Origin: Shigella phage JK42
Direction: 5' to 3' (one strand)
Length of the DNA: 64,000 bases
Sequence record: MK962756
Shown: piece after piece, positions 1-48,632 of the stretch
How the letters are laid out: every line of letters starts with the position of its first letter
How positions within the stretch are numbered: position 1 is the stretch's first letter
Notes under the pieces: model-generated
Database searches by the model: none
The model's input: only the letters and a program-made list of their open reading frames with translations
What the model was told of the DNA's origin: nothing
Made by a program: the position numbers and the translations under genes

Positions 1-2214
1 TTATTTGGCCGCTTCCACGGCCTTCATGAATTTAACGATTTGAGCGACCTGTTCTTTTGAAAGAGTACCACGTCGTCCCATGTAGTCTGACACAATATGA
101 TAATTGGTTTCGAATTCAATAACCATTTTATCATCATTATCGTAAGCATTATCTTTAAGCTTATCGAAAATTTTAGCACACAATTCTAACTTCTTATTCA
201 GGTCTGTATTAGTAGCACCTGCGAATCGATTCCATCCCCAACGATTATTTACTGTTGAGAGTTTTGCAAAGTCTTTACTGATTTCTTTGTTCTTAGAGCT
301 AAAATACTTACTAAGGAAGTTAAGCTCTTCATTACGAGTAATATGATTCAAATAAGGCTGTGCTCTACGACTTGGTGATACATACTCATCATAATCCACT
401 TTATCGATTAGCGTAATATAGTCATTAATTGATTTTTCGAACAAGCATTCTACTTCACCAAGTTTACGAACTTTCTTAGCAATCTGTGGACGAACTACAG
501 TGAACTCTTTAATACCTGACAAATCAGCAATACGGGTCAAGAAATTGGAGTCATAGTTCAACCAACCTTTATCTGCGTCAAGACATTCAGCATTAGAACG
601 ATTACGAACTATAGCATAACCTTGGATTTCATCAGCTTCACTCGCTGGAATAAAGAGATCTTCTGATACCCAAACATCGTTTTCATTCTTAAAGAACCGA
701 TGAGCACTCGGGGATTTAGGACGAGGCCCATTAGAACGAGTCTTGACTTCAATCCATGGCTTAACGATTTGTAAAAGCTCTGAAGTCTTGTACATGTTAA
801 TGTTGTCGCCATCAAAGATAACTTTAAGACGTTCCAGAAGTTTCATTGCATCTTCGTCTGTAGGGTCAACGAATAGTACGCTTTTACCAAAACCGCGTGG
901 AACTTTACCGGTTAATTTAACCTCGTCTTTAGACATTTCAATTGAATTAAGAGCTCGCATTAATGGAACGCGTCCCTTAACGTCGTCAATAACAATTTCA
1001 ACGTTTTTAATGTTAATGCCAATCAGACTGTTAATTGAAATAGTTGTCGATGAGCTACCACTTTCACGAATACGACGAAGACGAGGGGATTCAACGATAT
1101 CGTATACGACACCAAGATTACACCACTCAGGCCCCATTTTAAAACGTTTGTACAACTCAGAATAAGTTAGTTGTTCTTTAGAGTATTTCAGTGATTCAAT
1201 ATTAGACCCAGCCTTTTCCATGTATTTACGAGCGGTATAACCAAGAGAATCAATTTCACGGAACACATGACGCGGGTATTTACAATCAATCCATTTCTTA
1301 GAATCTTCAGCGAACAATTTAGCATCGATTTCTGCAACGCGTTTATGGATATTTGCTACTGTACGTTTATCAAATGACAATGCTTCACGAGACGGGGCTA
1401 CATCTAGTTCACCCATAGGGAATTTAATATAAGCTGTAGTGCATCGCGTCATCATCCATGTTTGTTCTTTAATAACACTTCCGATTGGATATACAATACC
1501 ACCATAAACAGCCATGATATTACCACGTTCACCCCATGGAGCTTCCTTGGCCAAATATACATCGTCAAATTCAGGAAAGTATTTAATATCTTTAACACCA
1601 CGAACTTCTGCAATATCACCTAGAGGACGCATAACATATGCAATTTCGGATGCGAACTTTTCAAAATCTTCCGGGTTAACCGGTACAACTACTTCTACAC
1701 CCGTACGGTCATCAGGGCCCATCTTATCTACAAAGGTTGGCTTAATTTGTGGACCCGTGTCATCTTGGTAGATTACGTAACCACGAACTTCACCGTTGTG
1801 ATAAGACGTAAGGTTAAACGTATCGGTATATGCTAGTGGAGCTTTAGAGCCGAGTCCGAATCCACCAATGAAATCGTTACTCGATGTTTTAGTTGAAGCA
1901 AAATATGAGTTATAGATTCCTGGCTCTTCATCATTACCTCGAATGGTGAAATCGCTCATACCAGGACCAAAGTCTCGAACTACAAAACGTGGGTCTAAAC
2001 GACCTGGAGCCTGAACAATAAACTTATCAGTGCAACCATTAAGAATTTGTCCATCAATACAGTTTGTGATTAATTCACGTACACAAGCCAATTCTTTGTT
2101 TGTATAAAGGTCATTAGACAAAATCTTATAAACTTTGCTATTGCCTTGAATAGTGAATGCTGTGCTTTTACCACCAGAACCAATAATCGTTTCTTTAGCC
2201 GTTTCAATAATCAT
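1..2214 (-). CDS. rIIA: rIIA membrane-associated protein (GHKL-type ATPase-like N-terminus)
   Basis: 737-aa complete ORF with stop at 1..3; N-terminal sequence and length match remembered T4 rIIA (725 aa); first gene of the canonical T4 map. Confidence 0.85.
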   Translation of the reverse strand: MIIETAKETIIGSGGKSTAFTIQGNSKVYKILSNDLYTNKELACVRELITNCIDGQILNGCTDKFIVQAPGRLDPRFVVRDFGPGMSDFTIRGNDEEPGIYNSYFASTKTSSNDFIGGFGLGSKAPLAYTDTFNLTSYHNGEVRGYVIYQDDTGPQIKPTFVDKMGPDDRTGVEVVVPVNPEDFEKFASEIAYVMRPLGDIAEVRGVKDIKYFPEFDDVYLAKEAPWGERGNIMAVYGGIVYPIGSVIKEQTWMMTRCTTAYIKFPMGELDVAPSREALSFDKRTVANIHKRVAEIDAKLFAEDSKKWIDCKYPRHVFREIDSLGYTARKYMEKAGSNIESLKYSKEQLTYSELYKRFKMGPEWCNLGVVYDIVESPRLRRIRESGSSSTTISINSLIGINIKNVEIVIDDVKGRVPLMRALNSIEMSKDEVKLTGKVPRGFGKSVLFVDPTDEDAMKLLERLKVIFDGDNINMYKTSELLQIVKPWIEVKTRSNGPRPKSPSAHRFFKNENDVWVSEDLFIPASEADEIQGYAIVRNRSNAECLDADKGWLNYDSNFLTRIADLSGIKEFTVVRPQIAKKVRKLGEVECLFEKSINDYITLIDKVDYDEYVSPSRRAQPYLNHITRNEELNFLSKYFSSKNKEISKDFAKLSTVNNRWGWNRFAGATNTDLNKKLELCAKIFDKLKDNAYDNDDKMVIEFETNYHIVSDYMGRRGTLSKEQVAQIVKFMKAVEAAK

Positions 2215-2226
2215 ATTTTTCTCTCA

Positions 2227-2427
2227 TCACAAGTTACGTTTAAAAATTTCTGCCACTTCGAGAAGTTCTTCTTTAGTAGCTGTATCGGTTTGTATTTTAT
2301 ATCGAATTTCTTTAAAGCGTTCTTTAAAGGACTCTGCTGACTCGATATCAAAAAATCTTTGGATAAGCCGGAATTCCCGGAGCACTGCTTTATCAAAAAG
2401 TTCCAAGTCCACGTTATATGTTCTCAT
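2227..2427 (-). CDS. small hypothetical protein at the rIIA.1 position
   Basis: 66-aa ORF directly downstream of rIIA on the same strand; assigned by position only. Confidence 0.45.
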   Translation of the reverse strand: MRTYNVDLELFDKAVLREFRLIQRFFDIESAESFKERFKEIRYKIQTDTATKEELLEVAEIFKRNL

Positions 2428-2452
2428 AATATTCTCTTCAGTAGATTCCTAG

Positions 2453-2503
2453 GGCACTATTACTAAAGACCATATAATCTATCATCTTATGTGTAATAGT
2501 GCC
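2453..2503. repeat. 11-bp perfect inverted repeat (GGCACTATTAC ... GTAATAGTGCC) with 29-nt A/T-rich loop
   Basis: Read directly: arms at 2453-2463 and 2493-2503; lies between the glycosyltransferase stop and the rIIA.1-like start. Confidence 0.4.
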
Positions 2504-2519
2504 TCAGGCTATTCAGGAT

Positions 2520-3620
2520 TTACGCTGTGAAGATTTTATCCCACATCGCAACAACTGCATCTCGGTTATACTTCTTCCATACTGCTTCAGCACGTTTAAC
2601 TCGAGCTTCGTATGTGTCAGTGAATTCTAATACAGCTTTTGTGTAAAGCGCAACTACTTCTTTCTTAGGAGTAGATGAATCAATTTCTACACGCACAGTA
2701 TCTGGGTCGTATTCAAATGTCGCATGAGGATAATCCTTAAAAACTAACTGGATTACAGGGACACCTTTAGAGATGGCTTCAATAGAACTATTCTCTACCG
2801 TACCTGTGTCAGGACAAGTATTAATAAGTGCTTTAGCTGTTTTAAGACGTTCCATGATTTCACTGTGTGGAGCATCAATAATAACAGGATATTTAGCCGG
2901 TGGCGCCCATTTGCTTGGACAGTATCCTGCACCATTTTCGCCTAGTGCTTTAATCGCTTCAAGAGCAACATCAGTACGACGCATTTTAGTGTCATAACGT
3001 TGTGCACTAATAATCAGATCCGTCGCCGGAAGAACTTCTGGCTTTTCAGTCAAACAAATAACCGGATAATCTTCGGCTTCAAACAACGGATTTGCTCGCC
3101 AATAATCATAATCAATTTTGTCAGTCAGACCTGAAGTCATATAACAATATTTACGTTCAAATTCACGGAAGGCTTTAGTAGGAGCATAACTCTTACCACC
3201 ATTCTTATGAATTTGAATAGTCTGGTCCCAAATTTGAACAATGCCACGAGATACCGGTTCAAATGGTGTTGCCATAAAATTCTTATGAACTTTAGAGAGA
3301 CCTGCGTCTTTAATTGCCTGAACGGTTAGTTTAGTCGGTTCCATAGTAACAACAAAATCGTATTCATGAATGCCGGCTAGTTCAACAATCTTACGAGCCA
3401 TAGTATAACTCATACCTAGACTGAATTTAGTCAGATGACCAACAGGATGATGATTAACCTTCCAATCACCAAATGTGTCATTATCAAAGCCGATATAATC
3501 AATATCAGCACCGATGGACACAAGATATTTCAACACATTTAAATGTACTGCTTCAAGACCACCTTGTACACGTTCTGGGTTAAATGGGACTGCGCGAGAT
3601 GGGATAAACATAACTTTCAT
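2520..3620 (-). CDS. GT-B fold glycosyltransferase (GT4-like); candidate DNA hmC sugar transferase
   Basis: 366 aa; N-terminus MKVMFIPSRAVPFNPERVQGGLEAVHLNVLKYL and C-terminal ...TGTVENSSIEAISKGVPVI resemble retaining GT-B enzymes; inserted between rIIA.1 and gene 39 where T4 has gene 60/mobA. Confidence 0.6.
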   Translation of the reverse strand: MKVMFIPSRAVPFNPERVQGGLEAVHLNVLKYLVSIGADIDYIGFDNDTFGDWKVNHHPVGHLTKFSLGMSYTMARKIVELAGIHEYDFVVTMEPTKLTVQAIKDAGLSKVHKNFMATPFEPVSRGIVQIWDQTIQIHKNGGKSYAPTKAFREFERKYCYMTSGLTDKIDYDYWRANPLFEAEDYPVICLTEKPEVLPATDLIISAQRYDTKMRRTDVALEAIKALGENGAGYCPSKWAPPAKYPVIIDAPHSEIMERLKTAKALINTCPDTGTVENSSIEAISKGVPVIQLVFKDYPHATFEYDPDTVRVEIDSSTPKKEVVALYTKAVLEFTDTYEARVKRAEAVWKKYNRDAVVAMWDKIFTA

Positions 3621-3646
3621 AATTAAGCCTTATTAAAATTAAAATG

Positions 3647-3664
3647 AAGCTCCCGAAGGAGCTT
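3647..3664 (-). terminator. hairpin AAGCTCC-CGAA-GGAGCTT followed on the minus strand by a U-rich tract
   Basis: 7-bp stem with 4-nt loop overlapping the gene 39 stop codon; minus-strand reading gives hairpin then CAUUUUAAUUUUAAU. Confidence 0.5.
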
Positions 3665-5480
3665 AGGACATCCATTCTTTACGAAGTTCTGAATCATCAC
3701 CCATCAACATTTCAAAGAGTTCTTTCCAATTTTCAGGAAGTTTAACTACGTCGTACACAGGGTTCTGAATCATTTCACGATATTCTGACTTTTCAAGGGA
3801 GCCTAATCCCTTGATGTATCTAATACTATGCTTAGGCAGTGTATCTTTAACTTCTTCATACTCAGCTACAGTATAAAACCATTTTTGAGTTTTGCCAATT
3901 TGTGCAATAATTACAGGTGTTTTAACAAAGCGAATACGTCCTTGTTCAAACAATTCAGGCCAATTACTAAAGAAAGCAAGCAAAGCCGGATAAATACTTC
4001 CAAGGCCGTCATGATCGGCATCGGTCATAATTGCAATATTACGGTAGTTCGTATTCTCTGCCTTTTCACCAAGAATAAGACCTGTGATAGCACAGATATC
4101 AAAGAGCTCTTTGTTCTTCATCATATCAGCATATGACATACCCCAGCTATTCATCACCTTACCACGTAATGGGAATCCACCGTGTAGTTCACGGTCACGA
4201 ACATCAATGAGATAACCAATTGCAGAATCACCTTCTGTTAAGAACAATGTCGTATCTGCATCTTTACCACATTGGTTAGCTTTAATATGCTTATGAACCT
4301 TAGCTTTAGTTGCCTTTTTAGCTGCTTTAGTTTCTGCAGCCTTTTCTGCCGCCAATTTACGAGCTAATGCTGCTTCAACAATAGGCATAATCAAGGCTTC
4401 GTTTTTAAGAAGTGCCTGAGCAATTTTCTTAGCATCTAATTGGATATGATTACGAATATCACCATACGTTGACGTTAAACGTTCTTTAGTCTGAGAATCA
4501 AAACGCATGTTGCTCATGTCTCTAATAAACATCAACATTGTGAGACATTCTTTAACACGAGCTTTAGTGACTTCAATACCCTTATATTTCTTTTTAATAC
4601 CGGGCAAAAGATGTTCGCAGATATCATCCATTACACATTCAACATGATGACCACCATTTTTAGTATGGATGTTATTCACATAAGTTAAATGACGGAAGCC
4701 ATCTGGTGATGTTGTGAATGCTATAGAGACTTTATCATTTTCTTGAATGATGTTATCTTCACCAAATTGTTTAGCAAATCGTTTAAAATTACCATCAACC
4801 TTTTTACCATTAAATGTGAACTTGATATCAGGATAAACGACTGCCAATGTTTGAAGTCTGTCTAAAGTAATATCTAAATAAATTTGAGATAAATTATGCT
4901 CTTCAAATGAAGAGAAATCAGGAGTGAAGATTACTTTAGTGCCTTTACATTTAGATTTCTTAGAAGACCATGATTTGTTTTCCATTCCGTTTGAACAGTT
5001 AACAGTGATTTCATTTTCGCCATCTGACGTGATGCCTGTAAACAACGTAGAGAAGATATTAGTTAAACTACTCCCGACGCCGTTCATACCACCAGTCTTG
5101 CGTTCAGAATCATCACCAAAGTTACCACCAGCCTTTGGAATAGTCCAGGCTGCTACAGGCCCAGGAATTTGTTCACCTGTTTGGTCGGTAACTAAACCTT
5201 GAGGAATACCACGTCCGTTATCTTCCACCGAAACTTGATTATTTTTAATTTGCACATCAATTTTATTTGCAAACTTAAATGATGTACGAATAGATTCATC
5301 AACCGAGTTGTCAATAATCTCATCGATTAATTTAACCAGACCAGGAACATATTCAACTTGTTGATATTTACCAAACAAAAAACGCTCATGTGCTTCTTTA
5401 GCAGAAGAACCAATATACATACCACTACGTTTCTTAATATGTTCTACATCTGACAATACCTTAATTTCATTTTTAATCAT
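3663..5480 (-). CDS. 39: DNA topoisomerase II large (ATPase, GyrB-like) subunit, fused 39/60 form
   Basis: 605 aa, GyrB-like sequence (…KKRSGMYIGSS…); the length fits the unsplit form of gp39 and no gene-60 bypass element is present. Confidence 0.9.
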   Translation of the reverse strand: MIKNEIKVLSDVEHIKKRSGMYIGSSAKEAHERFLFGKYQQVEYVPGLVKLIDEIIDNSVDESIRTSFKFANKIDVQIKNNQVSVEDNGRGIPQGLVTDQTGEQIPGPVAAWTIPKAGGNFGDDSERKTGGMNGVGSSLTNIFSTLFTGITSDGENEITVNCSNGMENKSWSSKKSKCKGTKVIFTPDFSSFEEHNLSQIYLDITLDRLQTLAVVYPDIKFTFNGKKVDGNFKRFAKQFGEDNIIQENDKVSIAFTTSPDGFRHLTYVNNIHTKNGGHHVECVMDDICEHLLPGIKKKYKGIEVTKARVKECLTMLMFIRDMSNMRFDSQTKERLTSTYGDIRNHIQLDAKKIAQALLKNEALIMPIVEAALARKLAAEKAAETKAAKKATKAKVHKHIKANQCGKDADTTLFLTEGDSAIGYLIDVRDRELHGGFPLRGKVMNSWGMSYADMMKNKELFDICAITGLILGEKAENTNYRNIAIMTDADHDGLGSIYPALLAFFSNWPELFEQGRIRFVKTPVIIAQIGKTQKWFYTVAEYEEVKDTLPKHSIRYIKGLGSLEKSEYREMIQNPVYDVVKLPENWKELFEMLMGDDSELRKEWMS

Positions 5481-44405: not shown

Positions 44406-44876
44406 TTAATCATGTTTCCACACCCCATCGGTATTTGACCAAAGTCGCTGATTATCTGATCCTCGCCACAGCTTTTTAGTCGGAAGATTTTTCTCATACT
44501 TCCCATCAATAATAACATCAACATATTTAAGCATTTCTAGTTGTTTAATATCTTCAAACTTATATCCTGTCCACAACCAAATGCTTTTATTGGGATAAAG
44601 ATTTTTTACTGTTTGAGCAATGCAATGAATAACATCTCGGTTATCAGGATAGAGAGGGTCACCTCCGGTTATAGTTAATCCTTCTATATAATCATTATTC
44701 AAACATTCAATTAACTGTTCTAGTGTTTCACCAGTGAATGGAACACCATTTCTAGCATTCCATGTTGATTTATTATAACACCCTTCGCATTTATGCAAAC
44801 AACCCGTAACGAAAAGAACGACCCTGCATCCAGGGCCATTCACAAAATCGCAAGGATAAAATCTATCATAATTCAT
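44406..44876 (-). CDS. nrdG: anaerobic ribonucleotide reductase activating protein (radical SAM)
   Basis: 156 aa; Cys cluster CLHKCEGCYN and overall NrdG-like sequence. Confidence 0.88.
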   Translation of the reverse strand: MNYDRFYPCDFVNGPGCRVVLFVTGCLHKCEGCYNKSTWNARNGVPFTGETLEQLIECLNNDYIEGLTITGGDPLYPDNRDVIHCIAQTVKNLYPNKSIWLWTGYKFEDIKQLEMLKYVDVIIDGKYEKNLPTKKLWRGSDNQRLWSNTDGVWKHD

Positions 44877-46690
44877 TGGTGTTTAACCCTATGCATGATT
44901 TCTTTATTTTTACCGAGATTAAATCCGCGTTCGTTCGGATTTCCCAAATAACCACATGTTCTTCTTATTGTGTTCATCTTTTTAGGATCAGTTTCTCCAC
45001 AAATAGAACAAACAAATCCGTTTTCAGTAGGAGTCATTTCATGGGTACTTCCACATGTAAAACATTTATCCACTGGCATATTAACACCAAAATAATCTAA
45101 ATGTTGTGCAGCATAATCCCAGACGGCCTCAAGTCCCTTTAAATTGTTTTTCATATCTGGAAGTTCAACATAAGAAATGTGACCACCTGTCGCTATGAAA
45201 TGATATGGCGCTTCACGAGAAATCTTTTCAAACGGAGTAATATTTTCTTCTACTGAAACATGGAAACTATTAGTGTACCAACCTTTATCAGTAACATCCT
45301 TTACACTTCCATATTTTTCTGTATCAAGTTTACAGAAGCGGTAACAAAGGTTTTCAGCAGGAGTAGAATACAAACTAAAAGCAAATCCAGTTCTTTCGGA
45401 CCACTGTTTAAGATGAGCATTCATTTTAGTTAAAATTTCTTGCCCAATATCACGACCGACAAGAATATTCAATTCGTGAATACCAATGTATCCTAAAGAC
45501 ACTGAACTTCTACCGTTTTTAAATAACTCAATTATGTCGTCATCAGGTTTAAGACGAACCCCGAATGCACCTTCTTGGTAAAGAATAGGAGCAACAGTCG
45601 CTTTAACTCCTTTTAAGGAACTAATTCTACACATCAAAGCTTCAAAACACAGATCCATTCGTTCATTGAACAATTCGATAAATTTCTGTTCATTGAACTG
45701 TGTTCCAATATAAGAATCTAGCGCAATACGAGGAAGATTTAATGTTACAACACCGAGATTATTACGTCCATCAAGAATTTCATTACCAGTCGAATCTTTC
45801 CATACGCTCAAGAAACTACGGCAACCCATCGGAGAAACAGGAACTGAAGAACCGGTAATAGCTTTATTATTCTTAACCGAAATAATGTCAGGATACATTC
45901 TTTTGCTTGCACATTCTAACGCAAGTTGTTTAATATCATAGTTTGGATCATCTTTATAAAGATTAACACCTTCTTCAACAAACATAACAAGTTTAGGAAA
46001 AATAGGAGTTATTCCATCACGACCAAGACCTTTAATGCGGTTTTTAAGAATTGCCTTCTGAATCATTCGTTCAGTCCAGTCAGTTCCCGTACCAAATGTA
46101 ATTGTTACAAAAGGCGTTTGTCCGTTTGAACTAAAGAGAGTATTTACTTCGTATTCATAAGCTTGGAATGCGTCATAGACATCTTTTTCTGTTTTAGATT
46201 GAGCATAATTCAACGCATCAGCGATTTGCCATTTTTCTGCATCTTCAACATGTTTAGCGTATGTGCGTTTAACATAAGGAGAAAGAACTTTATCTACATT
46301 CGCAAATGTAGTTCCGCCATACTGGTGTGAAGCAACTTGTGCGGTAATTTGTGCCATAATTGCAGTAGCAACACCAATCGATTTAGGCGTTTCAATTTGA
46401 GCATTGCCTAATTTAAATCCGTTCTCAAGCATTCCCTTTAAATCTACTAAACAGCAATTAGTAAAAGGCAATGATATACTGTAATCTAAATCGTGAAAAT
46501 GAATTAACCCGGCATTATGAGCATTTACAATATGGCTCGGAAGAATACTACAAGCGATATGTTTAGAAACAATACCGGCCATTAAATCTCTTTTTGTTGG
46601 AAAGACACGAGAATCTTTGTTGGCATTTTCGGTATTTAATTCTTTATCTTTATTTGAAATAAAATTTAAAACATCTTTCTCTAAAGACAT
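44873..46690 (-). CDS. nrdD: anaerobic ribonucleoside-triphosphate reductase
   Basis: 605 aa; C-terminal zinc ribbon CFTCGSTHEMTPTENGFVCSICG and glycyl-radical region RTCGYLG; uninterrupted (no intron). Confidence 0.9.
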   Translation of the reverse strand: MSLEKDVLNFISNKDKELNTENANKDSRVFPTKRDLMAGIVSKHIACSILPSHIVNAHNAGLIHFHDLDYSISLPFTNCCLVDLKGMLENGFKLGNAQIETPKSIGVATAIMAQITAQVASHQYGGTTFANVDKVLSPYVKRTYAKHVEDAEKWQIADALNYAQSKTEKDVYDAFQAYEYEVNTLFSSNGQTPFVTITFGTGTDWTERMIQKAILKNRIKGLGRDGITPIFPKLVMFVEEGVNLYKDDPNYDIKQLALECASKRMYPDIISVKNNKAITGSSVPVSPMGCRSFLSVWKDSTGNEILDGRNNLGVVTLNLPRIALDSYIGTQFNEQKFIELFNERMDLCFEALMCRISSLKGVKATVAPILYQEGAFGVRLKPDDDIIELFKNGRSSVSLGYIGIHELNILVGRDIGQEILTKMNAHLKQWSERTGFAFSLYSTPAENLCYRFCKLDTEKYGSVKDVTDKGWYTNSFHVSVEENITPFEKISREAPYHFIATGGHISYVELPDMKNNLKGLEAVWDYAAQHLDYFGVNMPVDKCFTCGSTHEMTPTENGFVCSICGETDPKKMNTIRRTCGYLGNPNERGFNLGKNKEIMHRVKHQ

Positions 46691-47502
46691 AATTCTAATT
46701 TATCCTTTTGAAATTCTTCGTCTAAATATGGGTTCCAACCCATTTTAAACCTTTTGATGAAATTATCAATTCTAAATTTCGGTAAGTTTAAATCCGCAAA
46801 AATAGATGATTTACTTTTAAAATCTGGACCTAAATAATCATATAAAATTTCTGCGTATTTTAACCATAATATATAAGTACCAGATTTAATTGCTCTCGGA
46901 GTTTTCCAAGGTTTTACGCCGTACATCGGATTTCCACTTCCTTTATGCCTGATAGAAGATGAAATTCCAATTTTAATTTTAGCTTCCTTTGTGTGCGAAA
47001 ATCCATGATGTGGATTTTCTTTCCAGTATTTTTTAGAAGCTTCTGATATTTTCTTTCTGGCTAAATTAGTATGATGCTTTCCATAAAATCCATGATTTTT
47101 ACCTTTATTACGATTTCTTTTAATCATGGTTATTGATTGCTTTTCTCTAGTTTCTTTAGAAGGAGAAACACCGTACGTTGTAAATTGACCATTAGCATAT
47201 GCTAAATTAAAATACTCTTTATTCCATATATCTTTTTCTATATTCTTTTGAAATTCAGCTTCAATGCTAGTTATTTGTTCATCTCCGACTAATTGAAAAT
47301 ATAATATTTCAACTTTCGGTGTTTCTTTCAACAGAGCTTTTTGAAATTCGGAAGATGACGAAGACGAATAATAAAATTTACCATTTTTATCAATAATATT
47401 CGTTCCGTCAAAAGTGCAATTGGTTTTACTTCCAATATAATAATATGGCGGGGTTTTAGCATTAATTCTACTAATAAATGATAGTTTATATACTACATTC
47501 AT
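46681..47502 (-). mobile_element. free-standing GIY-YIG homing endonuclease (Seg-like)
   Basis: 273 aa; N-terminal VYKL...YYIGSKT GIY-YIG-type motif, basic C-terminal region; wedged between 49 and nrdD, overlapping both. Confidence 0.55.
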
Positions 47503-47972
47503 TTTAAACTCTTTCTAAGCTGCTTTTTGAATGAAGCTATTAATTGTGTTTTAGTATCAGATTCATTATATTCAAATCCTCTTTGAAGCATCTCAGCCAT
47601 CATTTCCTCTTTACCTAGTCTTGAGAACTCTTTAGTTTTGTCTGGAACAAAATTAGGATGGATATTATTATCAGAATAATCTTGTTTCAAATAAGCAAGA
47701 AGAGATTCAAGCCATTCGAGGTAGTCGACATCACGACCTTTAAGACCAGAACGGTTGAACTTATGCTTCATTTGGCCTTCTGCTGCGTTGCACAGATTAC
47801 AGAGTAACCCACGAACTCTACCTGCTTTTGGCCCGTTTAATTCGTGGTCGTGGTCAAGATGGTTACCTTGAACATCAGGGTCTAATTCACGGTGGCAAAT
47901 AGGACACTTACCATTCTGTGCATCATAAAATTTTTGTTTTTCTTCTTTATATTTTGCGCCTGATAATAACAT
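47499..47972 (-). CDS. 49: endonuclease VII (Holliday junction resolvase)
   Basis: 157 aa; MLLSGAKYKEEKQKFYDAQNGKCPIC...HLDHDHELNGPKAGRVRGLLCNLCNAAEG... matches remembered T4 gp49. Confidence 0.92.
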   Translation of the reverse strand: MLLSGAKYKEEKQKFYDAQNGKCPICHRELDPDVQGNHLDHDHELNGPKAGRVRGLLCNLCNAAEGQMKHKFNRSGLKGRDVDYLEWLESLLAYLKQDYSDNNIHPNFVPDKTKEFSRLGKEEMMAEMLQRGFEYNESDTKTQLIASFKKQLRKSLK

Positions 47973-48007
47973 GATAAACCCTTACCTTAAATAGATAAGG
48001 GTATTTA

Positions 48008-48433
48008 TTAACTTAAACGTCTTTCTAAATATTCAATGTATTCTGCGGCTGCTTGCATCAGGTTACCTTCATAGCCGTCGTTATTTTCTTGTCCGGCTAA
48101 TTTAGCTAATGCATAAGAAATTCGTTCACCTTCGAATTCACCAAGTTTACTACCTAGCACATCCGAAATATCAGCCGAATCAATTTCTTCAAGTTCATCT
48201 ATTGAATGTGATTCCCAGAAGCACCAAAGAGAAGTATCACGGTCATAGATGCAAAGTTTCTCACCAGTGTTCAACATCACTTCAATAATGCCATGGTCGC
48301 CATAACCATCTTCGGTCGTAGTACCAATTACCTTGATGATTGTATCTTTCTTTAATTCAGGAAACTTATCTTGGAGTTCTTCGTCATCTTTAACAATCTT
48401 GAACCACTTACCACGTGTGTCAGAAATATTCAT
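48008..48433 (-). CDS. hypothetical acidic protein
   Basis: 141-aa ORF. Confidence 0.5.
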   Translation of the reverse strand: MNISDTRGKWFKIVKDDEELQDKFPELKKDTIIKVIGTTTEDGYGDHGIIEVMLNTGEKLCIYDRDTSLWCFWESHSIDELEEIDSADISDVLGSKLGEFEGERISYALAKLAGQENNDGYEGNLMQAAAEYIEYLERRLS

Positions 48434-48434
48434 A

Positions 48435-48632
48435 TCAATATCCTCTATAAAAGTTGCGATGCGTGCGTTTCGCTTTGCGAAGCTGACGTTTAGTTGGTCG
48501 AACCGTAAATGGTCGTCCGGAGAAAAAATTTGGTTCAGTTTTAATCAACACATACCAATCGTGTTCGCCACTTTTTAATAAACGGTATAACAATTTAACT
48601 TGCATAATAATCTCTTCCCATTTCCAAATCAA
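48435..48632 (-). CDS. hypothetical small basic protein
   Basis: 65-aa ORF. Confidence 0.35.
   Translation of the reverse strand: MIWKWEEIIMQVKLLYRLLKSGEHDWYVLIKTEPNFFSGRPFTVRPTKRQLRKAKRTHRNFYRGY

What the first reader, a model, noticed from the sequence alone, without database searches (positions are those of the whole stretch)
46681..47502. Free-standing GIY-YIG homing endonuclease between gene 49 and an intron-less nrdD
A 273-aa ORF with a GIY-YIG-like N-terminus (VYKL...YYIGSKT) overlaps the nrdD start by 10 nt and the gene 49 end by 4 nt. nrdD is one continuous 605-aa ORF, unlike T4 where I recall an intron carrying an endonuclease. This looks like an intergenic Seg-type insertion and marks a likely hotspot of mosaicism.
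Basis: partly seen in the sequence, partly recalled or inferred. Interest (0 to 1): 0.4.

Follow-up and report, generated by a model that had tools for sequence, protein, structure and literature searches.

The report
Seg-type homing endonuclease beside nrdD
This is an ordinary selfish "homing endonuclease" gene wedged between two conserved genes of a T4-like phage; it travels with a rewritten first 222 bases of the neighbouring nrdD gene, which shows roughly where the enzyme probably cuts rival phages.

Summary
A 273-aa ORF (46681-47502, minus strand) overlaps the gene 49 stop by 4 nt and the start of an intron-less 605-aa nrdD by 10 nt.

What it is:
- A free-standing Seg-type GIY-YIG homing endonuclease gene (HEG) of the SegG-like subfamily.
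- It is neither SegG itself nor SegH.
- Domains: a divergent GIY-YIG domain, NUMOD3 repeats and a C-terminal region that aligns with SegG's only in the multiple alignment.

Evidence that it is mobile:
- 49 of about 679 phage records with this junction carry it, in both Mosigvirus and Tequatrovirus.
- Copies are 96.6-99.8% identical, while flanks are as low as 73-88%.
- It is under purifying selection (pN/pS mostly about 0.13).

New here: all 48 records with a full-length copy carry a divergent nrdD 5' segment, with 63 fixed differences in nt 4-222 and none from there to nt 270. The only endonuclease-less record with that segment (OLB35) starts NrdD with the endonuclease's own first seven residues, a deletion scar. 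A distant metagenomic relative retains a 55-codon nrdD remnant upstream of the endonuclease gene. I therefore infer cleavage of endonuclease-less nrdD at about nt 165-225.

Databases already annotate the gene as a homing endonuclease. I found no experimental study. It is a new member of a known kind, of modest interest.

The parts
46681..47502 (-). Free-standing Seg-type homing endonuclease gene, 273 aa. The exact protein is deposited as QEG06198.1, named 'SegG homing endonuclease [Shigella phage JK42]'.
47188..47502 (-). Divergent GIY-YIG catalytic domain (aa 1-105). Family-conserved residues are Y5, Y22-I23-G24, K26, Y44, S47, E81 and N99.
46918..47151 (-). Linker with NUMOD3 DNA-binding repeats (aa about 118-195).
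   Evidence: Pfam NUMOD3 E 5e-8, two stretches. The family profile hits the I-TevI DNA-binding domain 1i3j, E 1e-4.
46684..46917 (-). C-terminal region (aa 196-273), presumed target-recognition module. It lines up with the C-termini of T4 SegG, P0002 and P0004 in the multiple alignment. Its last codons (FQKDK) carry the AAGGA Shine-Dalgarno-like sequence for nrdD.
   Evidence: Alignment, although pairwise BLASTP against SegG finds no significant C-terminal match. 58% identical homologue in L058. Low model confidence, pLDDT below 50.
46469..46690 (-). Endonuclease-linked allele of the nrdD 5' end (nt 1-222, codons 1-74). Inferred to be the obligatorily co-converted, probably cleavage-resistant segment. 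The homologous stretch of endonuclease-less phages is the predicted target region.
   Evidence: 63 fixed differences between alleles within nt 4-222 and none from nt 223 to 270. The allele is found in 48 carrier records and in one scarred endonuclease-less record only.
44873..46690 (-). nrdD, intron-less, 605 aa. The downstream host gene and probable target gene.
47499..47972 (-). Gene 49 (endonuclease VII). Its last ~100 nt are mostly 94-100% identical across the close relatives compared, carriers and non-carriers alike (81-82% in L017 and L018), and act as the left homology arm.
47565..47590 (-). T4 middle-promoter-like motif (MotA box TGCTTCA, 13-nt spacer, TATAAT) inside the gene 49 3' end. 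It probably drives the endonuclease-nrdD-nrdG unit.
   Evidence: Motif found. Present at the same place in T4 and in every Mosigvirus and T4-type locus fetched. Function is inferred from the motif only.
46703..46707 (-). AAGGA, the candidate ribosome-binding site of nrdD, embedded in the endonuclease gene's 3' end.
   Evidence: Sequence read. The equivalent CAAAAGGA precedes nrdD in L058.

Best explanation
The ORF encodes a free-standing Seg-type homing endonuclease. It has an N-terminal divergent GIY-YIG nuclease domain of the SegG-like subfamily, a NUMOD3 linker and a C-terminal DNA-recognition module.

Inferred expression: it is transcribed with nrdD and nrdG from the promoter region in the gene 49 3' end. 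It has taken over the ATGA start/stop overlap that nrdD uses in endonuclease-less phages.

Inferred mechanism: in mixed infections the enzyme cuts the endonuclease-less nrdD allele within its first ~225 nt, most likely around nt 165-225, just upstream of the PFTNCC-coding sequence. The break is repaired from the endonuclease-carrying genome, using the conserved gene 49 3' end on one side and nrdD downstream of codon 75 on the other. This copies in the endonuclease gene together with its own diverged, presumably resistant, nrdD 5' segment (intronless homing with co-conversion).

Shown: gene structure, family, fold, selection, distribution and linkage to the nrdD allele.
Inferred: nuclease activity, cut position, resistance of the linked allele, and promoter use.
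For: Family and fold:
- PHROG 7504 'homing endonuclease' E 1e-33 and NUMOD3 E 5e-8.
- 40% identity to T4 SegG over aa 1-126. The review PMC2988022 lists SegG as an active GIY-YIG enzyme.
- hhalign of a 136-sequence family profile against canonical GIY-YIG gives probability 91.6%, E 8e-7. It aligns Y5/Y22-G24/E81/N99 with I-TevI Y6/Y17-G19/E75/N90, and each is conserved in at least 134 of 136 representatives.

Functional constraint:
- All 7 copies examined are intact, with pN/pS 0.04-0.32, mostly about 0.13.

Mobility:
- 49 records carry the gene at 96.6-99.8% nt identity, in both Mosigvirus and Tequatrovirus.
- About 630 other records with the junction have gene 49 abutting nrdD.
- Gene 49 in several carriers is only 73-85% identical to the window.
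- GC is 28.7% against 35-37% for the neighbouring genes.

Target inference:
- 63 fixed differences confined to nrdD nt 4-222.
- The linked allele occurs in 48 of 48 full-length carriers and otherwise only in OLB35, whose NrdD begins MNVVYKL, the endonuclease's own N-terminus.
- L058 has gp49, then 55 codons of the resident nrdD, then an endonuclease homologue, then a complete nrdD.
Against: - There is no biochemical or genetic test of this protein, and I found no paper on it.
- Pfam PF01541 gives no hit. Foldseek against PDB is not significant. phmmer and the family profile do not reach the I-TevI catalytic domain by sequence.
- The canonical catalytic Arg (I-TevI R27) has no counterpart. Only K26 (99%) and R12 (81% R/K) are conserved basic residues. 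Active SegG shares all of these features, and SegG, SegH and I-TevII also fail PF01541.
- The cut-site inference is purely comparative. The linked nrdD segment could be hitch-hiking donor sequence rather than an immunity allele.
- From memory, the abstract of Sandegren et al. 2005 says SegH and Hef cut endonuclease-carrying DNA too. That paper was not readable here.
- L058 is a single metagenomic contig whose endonuclease gene is frameshifted. OLB35 is flagged UNVERIFIED.
Confidence: 0.75

Rival explanations
1. It is an active homing endonuclease, but its target is not the nrdD 5' end. The target would lie in gene 49, further into nrdD, or at a distant site. The linked nrdD 5' segment would then be passive hitch-hiking sequence from the original donor lineage.
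For: - Free-standing endonucleases can cut hundreds to thousands of bp from their own gene (PMC2988022).
- The gene 49 3' end is nearly identical in carriers and non-carriers, so a site there is not excluded if the enzyme tolerates self-cleavage.
Against: - Hitch-hiking alone should decay by recombination. Yet linkage is perfect in 48 of 48 carriers across two genera, and it stops abruptly at nt 222, with synonymous sites included.
- The nrdD remnant in L058 ends at codon 55, inside the block.
Confidence: 0.13
2. It is a decayed or catalytically dead endonuclease gene. It would be retained only because it now carries nrdD's translation signals and sits in the operon, or because it was domesticated as a NUMOD3 DNA-binding regulator of nrdD/nrdG.
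For: - No Pfam GIY-YIG hit, and no Arg at the canonical position.
- One source names it 'NUMOD3 domain-containing DNA-binding protein'.
- The nrdD ribosome-binding site lies inside its 3' end.
Against: - Purifying selection acts over the whole ORF, and all seven copies examined are intact.
- Tyr, Tyr, Glu and Asn are invariant across 136 family representatives.
- The gene is sporadic, and near-identical copies occur in diverged backgrounds of two genera, which indicates recent spread rather than vertical retention.
- It can be lost or truncated without apparent harm, as in OLB35 and FL18.
Confidence: 0.08
3. The ORF is a conserved, non-mobile structural or metabolic gene of this phage group that merely resembles an endonuclease.
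For: None beyond its fixed position in the 49 records that carry it.
Against: - It is absent from about 93% of records with the same junction, including the closest endonuclease-less relatives WFK, L005 and L006.
- Its family, fold and residue evidence all point to a nuclease.
Confidence: 0.02

Closest known systems
T4 SegG (gene 32.1; free-standing GIY-YIG homing endonuclease between genes 59 and 32)
   Same: - Same catalytic-domain subfamily: 40% identity over aa 1-126, E 5e-27.
- Same conserved residues, and the same lack of a Pfam GIY-YIG hit and of the canonical Arg.
- The C-termini line up in the multiple alignment around shared WKT and GW-P motifs.
- Both are free-standing genes in the orientation of their neighbours. 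SegG is experimentally active and drives co-conversion from a distant cut site (PMC2988022).
   Different: - Different locus (49/nrdD rather than 59/32), and therefore a different presumed target.
- 273 aa against 210 aa, with an added NUMOD3 linker that SegG lacks.
- Pairwise BLASTP finds no significant similarity beyond the N-terminal domain.
- It is not an orthologue, although one GenBank record names it 'SegG'.
SegH (phages LZ2 and others; GIY-YIG endonuclease between nrdD and nrdG, in the place of T4 mobC)
   Same: A Seg-type endonuclease with NUMOD3 repeats associated with the same anaerobic ribonucleotide reductase operon. The two co-occur in F26 and FL18.
   Different: - It sits at the other end of nrdD.
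- Only NUMOD3-level similarity: 26% over 101 aa, E 0.002.
- Its catalytic domain is of a different GIY-YIG subtype, with a weak SegE_GIY-YIG Pfam hit.
I-TevI (td intron endonuclease; the structural reference for GIY-YIG homing enzymes)
   Same: - Aligned Tyr/Tyr/Glu/Asn.
- A NUMOD3-type minor-groove helix in the linker.
- The same modular layout of nuclease, linker and DNA-binding domain.
   Different: - I-TevI is intron-encoded and cuts close to its insertion site.
- It has R27, a zinc finger and a helix-turn-helix domain that are not detected here.
- The spacing between the GIY and YIG tyrosines is 17 residues here (Y5 to Y22), against 11 in I-TevI (Y6 to Y17).
SegF and 'intronless homing' / localized marker exclusion (Belle et al. 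2002, as summarised in PMC2988022)
   Same: The proposed mechanism: a cut in a neighbouring conserved gene of the endonuclease-less phage, followed by repair that co-converts the sequence between the cut site and the endonuclease gene. The endonuclease-linked nrdD block is the expected footprint.
   Different: A different protein and locus. Here the footprint is inferred from database genomes and not from crosses.
Other mobile elements that hit nrdD: the I-TevII intron, MobC, and the intein in L042
   Same: They target the same roughly 3-kb 49-nrdD-nrdG segment.
   Different: - Unrelated insertion sites.
- Different enzyme types (HNH, or an intein) or only a distant GIY-YIG subtype.

Membership tests
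GIY-YIG nuclease superfamily | 'GIY' tyrosine on the first beta-strand | tested here: met
   V4-Y5. Tyr is present in 133 of 133 family representatives and aligns with I-TevI Y6.
GIY-YIG nuclease superfamily | 'YIG' motif on the second beta-strand | tested here: met
   Y22-I23-G24. Y and G are present in 135 of 135 representatives and align with I-TevI Y17-V18-G19.
GIY-YIG nuclease superfamily | Conserved catalytic Arg in the helix after YIG (I-TevI R27) | tested here: not met
   No Arg or Lys column at the aligned position. The region is replaced by a beta-hairpin-like insert. K26 (134 of 135) and R12 (81% R/K) are the only conserved basic residues. Active T4 SegG shares this state.
GIY-YIG nuclease superfamily | Metal-binding Glu (I-TevI E75) and Asn (N90) | tested here: met
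   E81 is conserved in 134 of 136 and N99 in 136 of 136 representatives. They align with E75 and N90.
GIY-YIG nuclease superfamily | GIY-YIG alpha/beta fold | tested here: met
   [not shown]
GIY-YIG nuclease superfamily | Match to the curated family model (Pfam PF01541) | tested here: not met
   No hit at E up to 1. As controls, SegG, SegH and I-TevII also miss PF01541 while I-TevI hits it. NCBIfam TIGR01453 'group I intron endonuclease' gives E 6e-5, below its cut-off.
GIY-YIG nuclease superfamily | DNA cleavage leaving 2-nt 3' overhangs | not testable with these tools
   Needs enzyme assays.
Free-standing (Seg-type) phage homing endonuclease genes / intronless homing | A stand-alone ORF between conserved genes, not inside an intron or intein, in the same orientation as its neighbours | tested here: met
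   It lies between gene 49 and nrdD, with overlaps of 4 and 10 nt. T4 and most relatives have the two genes abutting.
Free-standing (Seg-type) phage homing endonuclease genes / intronless homing | Sporadic presence among close relatives, with the gene more conserved than its flanks | tested here: met
   49 of about 679 records with the junction carry it. The gene is 96.6-99.8% identical, against 73-97% for flanks. It occurs in two genera.
Free-standing (Seg-type) phage homing endonuclease genes / intronless homing | A co-converted flanking tract linked to the endonuclease gene | tested here: met
   nrdD nt 4-222 carries 63 fixed differences, with perfect linkage in 48 carriers.
Free-standing (Seg-type) phage homing endonuclease genes / intronless homing | Site-specific cleavage of the endonuclease-less allele and preferential inheritance in mixed infection | not testable with these tools
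   Needs cleavage assays and phage crosses.
SegG orthologue (as one GenBank record names it) | Same locus (59/32) and full-length similarity to T4 SegG | tested here: not met
   Pairwise similarity is confined to aa 1-126 (40%). The locus is 49/nrdD, and an extra NUMOD3 linker is present.
SegH | Sequence identity to LZ2 SegH and the nrdD/nrdG position | tested here: not met
   26% identity over 101 aa, restricted to the NUMOD3 region. SegH lies between nrdD and nrdG. In the window nrdD and nrdG overlap directly.
NUMOD3-containing nuclease-associated DNA-binding modules | NUMOD3 motif above the Pfam threshold | tested here: met
   PF07460 scores 33.1 bits against a cut-off of 20.4, in two stretches. 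The family profile matches I-TevI 1i3j residues 24-76.

The most novel reading that the evidence does not exclude
The SegG-like clade is a distinct catalytic variant of the GIY-YIG fold. It has at least 146 representatives at the 50%-identity cluster level. It would lack the canonical Arg and instead use an invariant Lys next to YIG (K26), and/or an Arg (R12) on a helix inserted between the GIY and YIG strands.

This particular element would also act as a natural 'cleave-and-rescue' cassette: the nuclease plus a recoded, resistant 5' end of its target gene. Its activity would occasionally delete nrdD outright, as in FL18.
Probability: 0.3. Interest if true: 0.45.

Novelty: new member of a known kind. 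Interest (0 to 1): 0.3.

Why it matters
This adds an uncharacterised Seg-type endonuclease, and a previously undescribed insertion site (49/nrdD), to the T-even catalogue of homing endonucleases.

The comparative footprint gives an unusually precise and cheap experimental prediction. Three observations converge on a cut in endonuclease-less nrdD at about nt 165-225:
- the 222-nt linked nrdD allele;
- the deletion scar in OLB35;
- the 55-codon nrdD remnant in a distant relative.

It also documents that one ~3-kb operon is hit by at least five different mobile elements. That is useful for studies of marker exclusion and phage-phage competition, and for anyone engineering or comparing therapeutic Tequatrovirus and Mosigvirus phages. 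It does not change how these systems are understood.

Tried and rejected
- **SegH identity.** Tested because T4-family literature places a seg gene next to nrdD. Rejected: SegH lies between nrdD and nrdG and shares only NUMOD3 similarity.
- **Foldseek against PDB with the full-length model.** Not significant.
- **The C-terminal 80 residues.** They model poorly (pLDDT below 50), so no fold claim is made for them.
- **RNA structure hiding the endonuclease gene's start.** None found (z -0.21). A weak structure at the nrdD start (z -1.85) is not convincing.
- **Terminators.** The intrinsic-terminator scan of 46300-48500 found none. The sigma-70 promoter scan was at background level.
- **The primary SegH/Hef paper (PMC1275590).** Not held. 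Statements about it rest on the review and on my memory of its abstract.
- **IMG/VR scan with the protein.** It returned only two loci. The phage GenBank collection was far more informative.
Full report
**Observation.** The ORF list shows a 273-aa ATG-initiated ORF at 46681..47502 on the minus strand, beginning MNVVYKLSFISRINAKTPPYYYIGSKT.
- Upstream is a 157-aa protein at 47499..47972 that is T4 endonuclease VII, gene 49 (Pfam Endonuclease_7 and Endonuc-dimeris).
- Downstream is a single 605-aa NrdD ORF at 44873..46690 (Pfam NRDD, E 3e-171), followed by nrdG.
- The overlaps are 4 nt (ATGA) with gene 49 and 10 nt with nrdD.
- With the ORF's own base composition (28.7% GC), the chance of 273 stop-free codons is 6e-12.
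- In T4, gene 49 overlaps nrdD directly by 4 nt. T4 nrdD is split by the I-TevII intron, and mobC lies between nrdD and nrdG.

**Whose genome.** The 4.1-kb region is 96.8% identical to Escherichia phage MM02, a Mosigvirus. The exact protein sequence is deposited as QEG06198.1, 'SegG homing endonuclease [Shigella phage JK42]'. Other records call it 'homing endonuclease', 'hypothetical protein' or 'NUMOD3 domain-containing DNA-binding protein'.

**What the protein is.**
- Pfam finds only NUMOD3 (E 5e-8) and no GIY-YIG domain. PHROGs places residues 1-125 in phrog_7504, 'homing endonuclease', at E 1e-33.
- The closest characterised protein is T4 SegG, 40% identical over residues 1-126. In the multiple alignment the C-termini also line up around shared WKT and GW-P motifs. 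Pairwise BLASTP finds no significant similarity beyond the N-terminal domain.
- It is not SegH. SegH of phage LZ2 lies between nrdD and nrdG and shares only NUMOD3-level similarity.
- An AlphaFold model built on 28 homologues is confident for residues 1-105 (pLDDT about 90) and poor for the C-terminus.
- An exhaustive search with residues 1-112 found 146 cluster representatives at E up to 1e-3.
- A 136-sequence profile of these aligns to a canonical GIY-YIG profile (I-TevI, SegH and six PF01541-positive proteins) with 91.6% probability, E 8e-7. It pairs Y5, Y22-I23-G24, E81 and N99 with I-TevI Y6, Y17-V18-G19, E75 and N90.
- In the family, Y5, Y22, G24, K26, Y44, S47, E81 and N99 are essentially invariant.
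- The canonical Arg (I-TevI R27) has no counterpart. K26 and R12 are the conserved basic residues.
- This is a property of the whole SegG-like clade. SegG is listed as experimentally active (PMC2988022 Table 1). SegG, SegH and I-TevII all miss PF01541 as well. The Pfam miss is therefore not evidence of inactivity.
- A family profile also matches the NUMOD3 minor-groove helix of the I-TevI DNA-binding domain (1i3j, E 1e-4).

**Is it a live gene?** Seven copies (the window, MM02, AV118, F26, TadeuszReichstein and two IMG/VR contigs) are all intact 822-nt ORFs. Pairwise pN/pS is 0.04-0.32, mostly about 0.13. That indicates purifying selection on the protein.

**Distribution.**
- The 822-nt gene occurs in 49 phage records at 96.6-99.8% identity, always next to gene 49.
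- A chimeric query of 400 nt of nrdD 5' end plus 400 nt of gene 49 3' end finds 679 records with the junction. Carriers span about 1620 bp, and all others span about 808-810 bp, meaning the genes abut.
- Carriers belong to both Mosigvirus (MM02, AV118, FL18) and Tequatrovirus (F26, TadeuszReichstein).
- In a 100-nt sliding comparison the endonuclease gene is 92-100% identical in all carriers. Gene 49 drops to 73-85% in AV118, F26, TadeuszReichstein and G8, which carry the T4-type gene 49 allele.
- The last ~100 nt of gene 49 are mostly 94-100% identical across the close relatives compared (81-82% in L017 and L018), T4 included. This stretch contains a MotA-box-like middle-promoter motif, TGCTTCA-N13-TATAAT, which is present at the same place in every T4-type and Mosigvirus-type locus.
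- In more distant T4-like phages the junction is also tight, or nrdD is absent downstream of gene 49.

**The linked nrdD segment, the main new result.**
- In endonuclease-less phages the first ~300 nt of nrdD are only 63-81% identical to the window, while the rest of nrdD is 90-100% identical. In carriers the same stretch is 93-100% identical.
- Codon by codon, the two allele classes differ by 28-32 non-synonymous and about 25 synonymous changes in codons 2-75. After that they are indistinguishable.
- There are 63 fixed differences in nt 4-222 and none from nt 223 to 270. The last cluster is at nt 202-222, directly upstream of the sequence encoding PFTNCC. From memory, that motif contains the active-site Cys79 of T4 NrdD; this was not checked here.
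- A search with this 225-nt block finds it at 80% coverage or more in exactly 49 records: the 48 full-length carriers plus OLB35.
- OLB35 has no endonuclease gene, but its NrdD begins MNVVYKL, the endonuclease's own first seven residues, fused in register to the linked nrdD allele. This is the scar of an 812-bp deletion of the endonuclease gene. The record is flagged UNVERIFIED.
- The mobile unit is therefore about 1.03 kb: the endonuclease gene plus nrdD nt 1-222. It is bounded by the conserved gene 49 3' end and by nrdD from codon 75 on.

**A distant relative that shows the join.**
- The nearest non-identical homologue (P0002, 58% identity, same C-terminal module) lies on a metagenomic T4-like contig, L058, whose gp49 is 64% and NrdD 68% identical to the window's.
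- The order there is gp49, then a 55-codon remnant of a resident-type nrdD 5' end, then the endonuclease homologue, then a complete nrdD with its own start inside the endonuclease gene's 3' end.
- The remnant's ATG overlaps the gene 49 stop, and its stop overlaps the endonuclease ATG. In this assembly the endonuclease homologue is frameshifted after about residue 47.
- This is what a break in nrdD near codon 55 would leave if repair were homologous on the nrdD side and illegitimate on the gene 49 side.
- Taken with the nt-222 boundary, it brackets the predicted cut at about nt 165-225 of endonuclease-less nrdD. This is an inference and has not been shown.
- A second relative (P0003) has the same catalytic domain (57%) with a different C-terminus. 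It sits next to gene 5, which is the usual domain shuffling of these enzymes.

**Mechanism proposed.** The gene occupies the exact ATGA start/stop overlap that nrdD uses in endonuclease-less phages. nrdD in turn has acquired a new start preceded by AAGGA inside the endonuclease gene's last codons. No RNA hairpin masks the endonuclease start. The gene is probably transcribed from the conserved middle-promoter-like element in gene 49 and translated by coupling to gene 49. During co-infection it would cut endonuclease-less nrdD. Double-strand-break repair would then copy in the gene and the resistant nrdD 5' end. This is the 'intronless homing' and marker-exclusion route described for SegF and SegG (PMC2988022).

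**Rivals.**
- The target may lie elsewhere, with the nrdD block merely hitch-hiking.
- The protein may be a dead or domesticated DNA-binding protein.
- It may be a non-mobile conserved gene.
- These are scored at about 0.13, 0.08 and 0.02, for the reasons given in the report sections.

**Comparison and novelty.**
- It works like a T4 Seg enzyme and belongs to the SegG-like branch of GIY-YIG. It fails two membership tests (the canonical Arg and the Pfam model), exactly as SegG does.
- It is not an orthologue of SegG or SegH.
- Searches of the held literature found reviews and SegH/MobC work on the nrdD/nrdG junction, but nothing on an endonuclease gene at 49/nrdD.
- GenBank records already annotate it as a homing endonuclease.
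- It is therefore a new, uncharacterised member of a well-known kind.

**Mosaicism hotspot.** The 49-nrdD-nrdG segment hosts at least five mobile elements across relatives:
- this endonuclease gene;
- the nrdD intron with I-TevII or a 56% homologue;
- an intein-like insertion exactly within PFTN|CC in L042 (the Pfam support is weak);
- MobC or a MobC-like gene;
- SegH.

F26 carries three of these at once. FL18 has lost nrdD altogether: the endonuclease gene is fused after about nt 605 to the last ~18 codons of nrdD, followed by SegH.

**Verdict.** The finding is ordinary for T-even phages, but it now comes with a precise and testable target prediction. Interest is 0.3.

Noticed in passing
L057 (Escherichia phage OLB35, MH992122.1) 2700-2724, minus strand: A phage without the endonuclease gene whose NrdD starts MNVVYKL, the endonuclease's own N-terminus, and then continues with the endonuclease-linked nrdD allele. 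This looks like an 812-bp in-register deletion of the endonuclease gene. The record is flagged UNVERIFIED.
   Followed up: partly
L058 (Logan SRR27536177 contig) 1718-4712: A distant T4-like contig with gp49, then a 55-codon remnant of a resident nrdD 5' end, then a 58%-identical endonuclease homologue (frameshifted after about aa 47), then a complete nrdD. It suggests a break and illegitimate join near nrdD codon 55.
   Followed up: partly
L050 (Escherichia phage FL18, PP400780.1) 2614-4105: nrdD is deleted. The endonuclease gene (nt 1 to about 605) is fused in frame to the last ~18 codons of nrdD and is followed by SegH, 99% identical to LZ2 SegH. This may be a deletion between the two endonuclease-associated regions.
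   Followed up: partly
L053 (Escherichia phage F26, OP870145.1) 825-5322: Three endonuclease genes surround one nrdD: this one at 49/nrdD, an I-TevII homologue (56%) in an nrdD intron, and SegH (99.6%) at nrdD/nrdG.
   Followed up: partly
L042 4468-7245: A 925-aa NrdD with a ~320-aa insertion exactly inside the PFTN|CCLVDL motif. It is probably an intein, but the Pfam Intein_splicing hit is only E 0.003 and below the cut-off. The insertion is adjacent to the boundary of the endonuclease-linked block.
   Followed up: partly
window 47565-47590, minus strand (inside gene 49): A MotA-box-like middle-promoter motif, TGCTTCA-N13-TATAAT. It is conserved at the same place in T4 and in all Mosigvirus-type and T4-type loci fetched. 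It lies in the stretch of gene 49 that stays mostly 94-100% identical across otherwise diverged gene 49 alleles.
   Followed up: partly
L059 4001-4822: A 273-aa protein with the same SegG-like catalytic domain (57%) but an unrelated C-terminus. It is inserted directly after the gene 5 baseplate lysozyme gene of another T4-like phage, an example of domain shuffling with retargeting.
   Followed up: no
L050 and L055, the nrdD 3' end next to segH: The NrdD C-terminus next to SegH in FL18 reads ...PWNLGKMKEMVKRVKHA, against ...GFNLGKNKEIMHRVKHQ in SegH-less phages. This hints that SegH also travels with a diverged piece of nrdD, at the 3' end.
   Followed up: no
window 48008-48433 compared with relatives: The pin (protease inhibitor) region upstream of gene 49 is highly mosaic. 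The window's Pin is only 48-50% identical to that of T4 and several carriers, and some relatives lack a match altogether.
   Followed up: no
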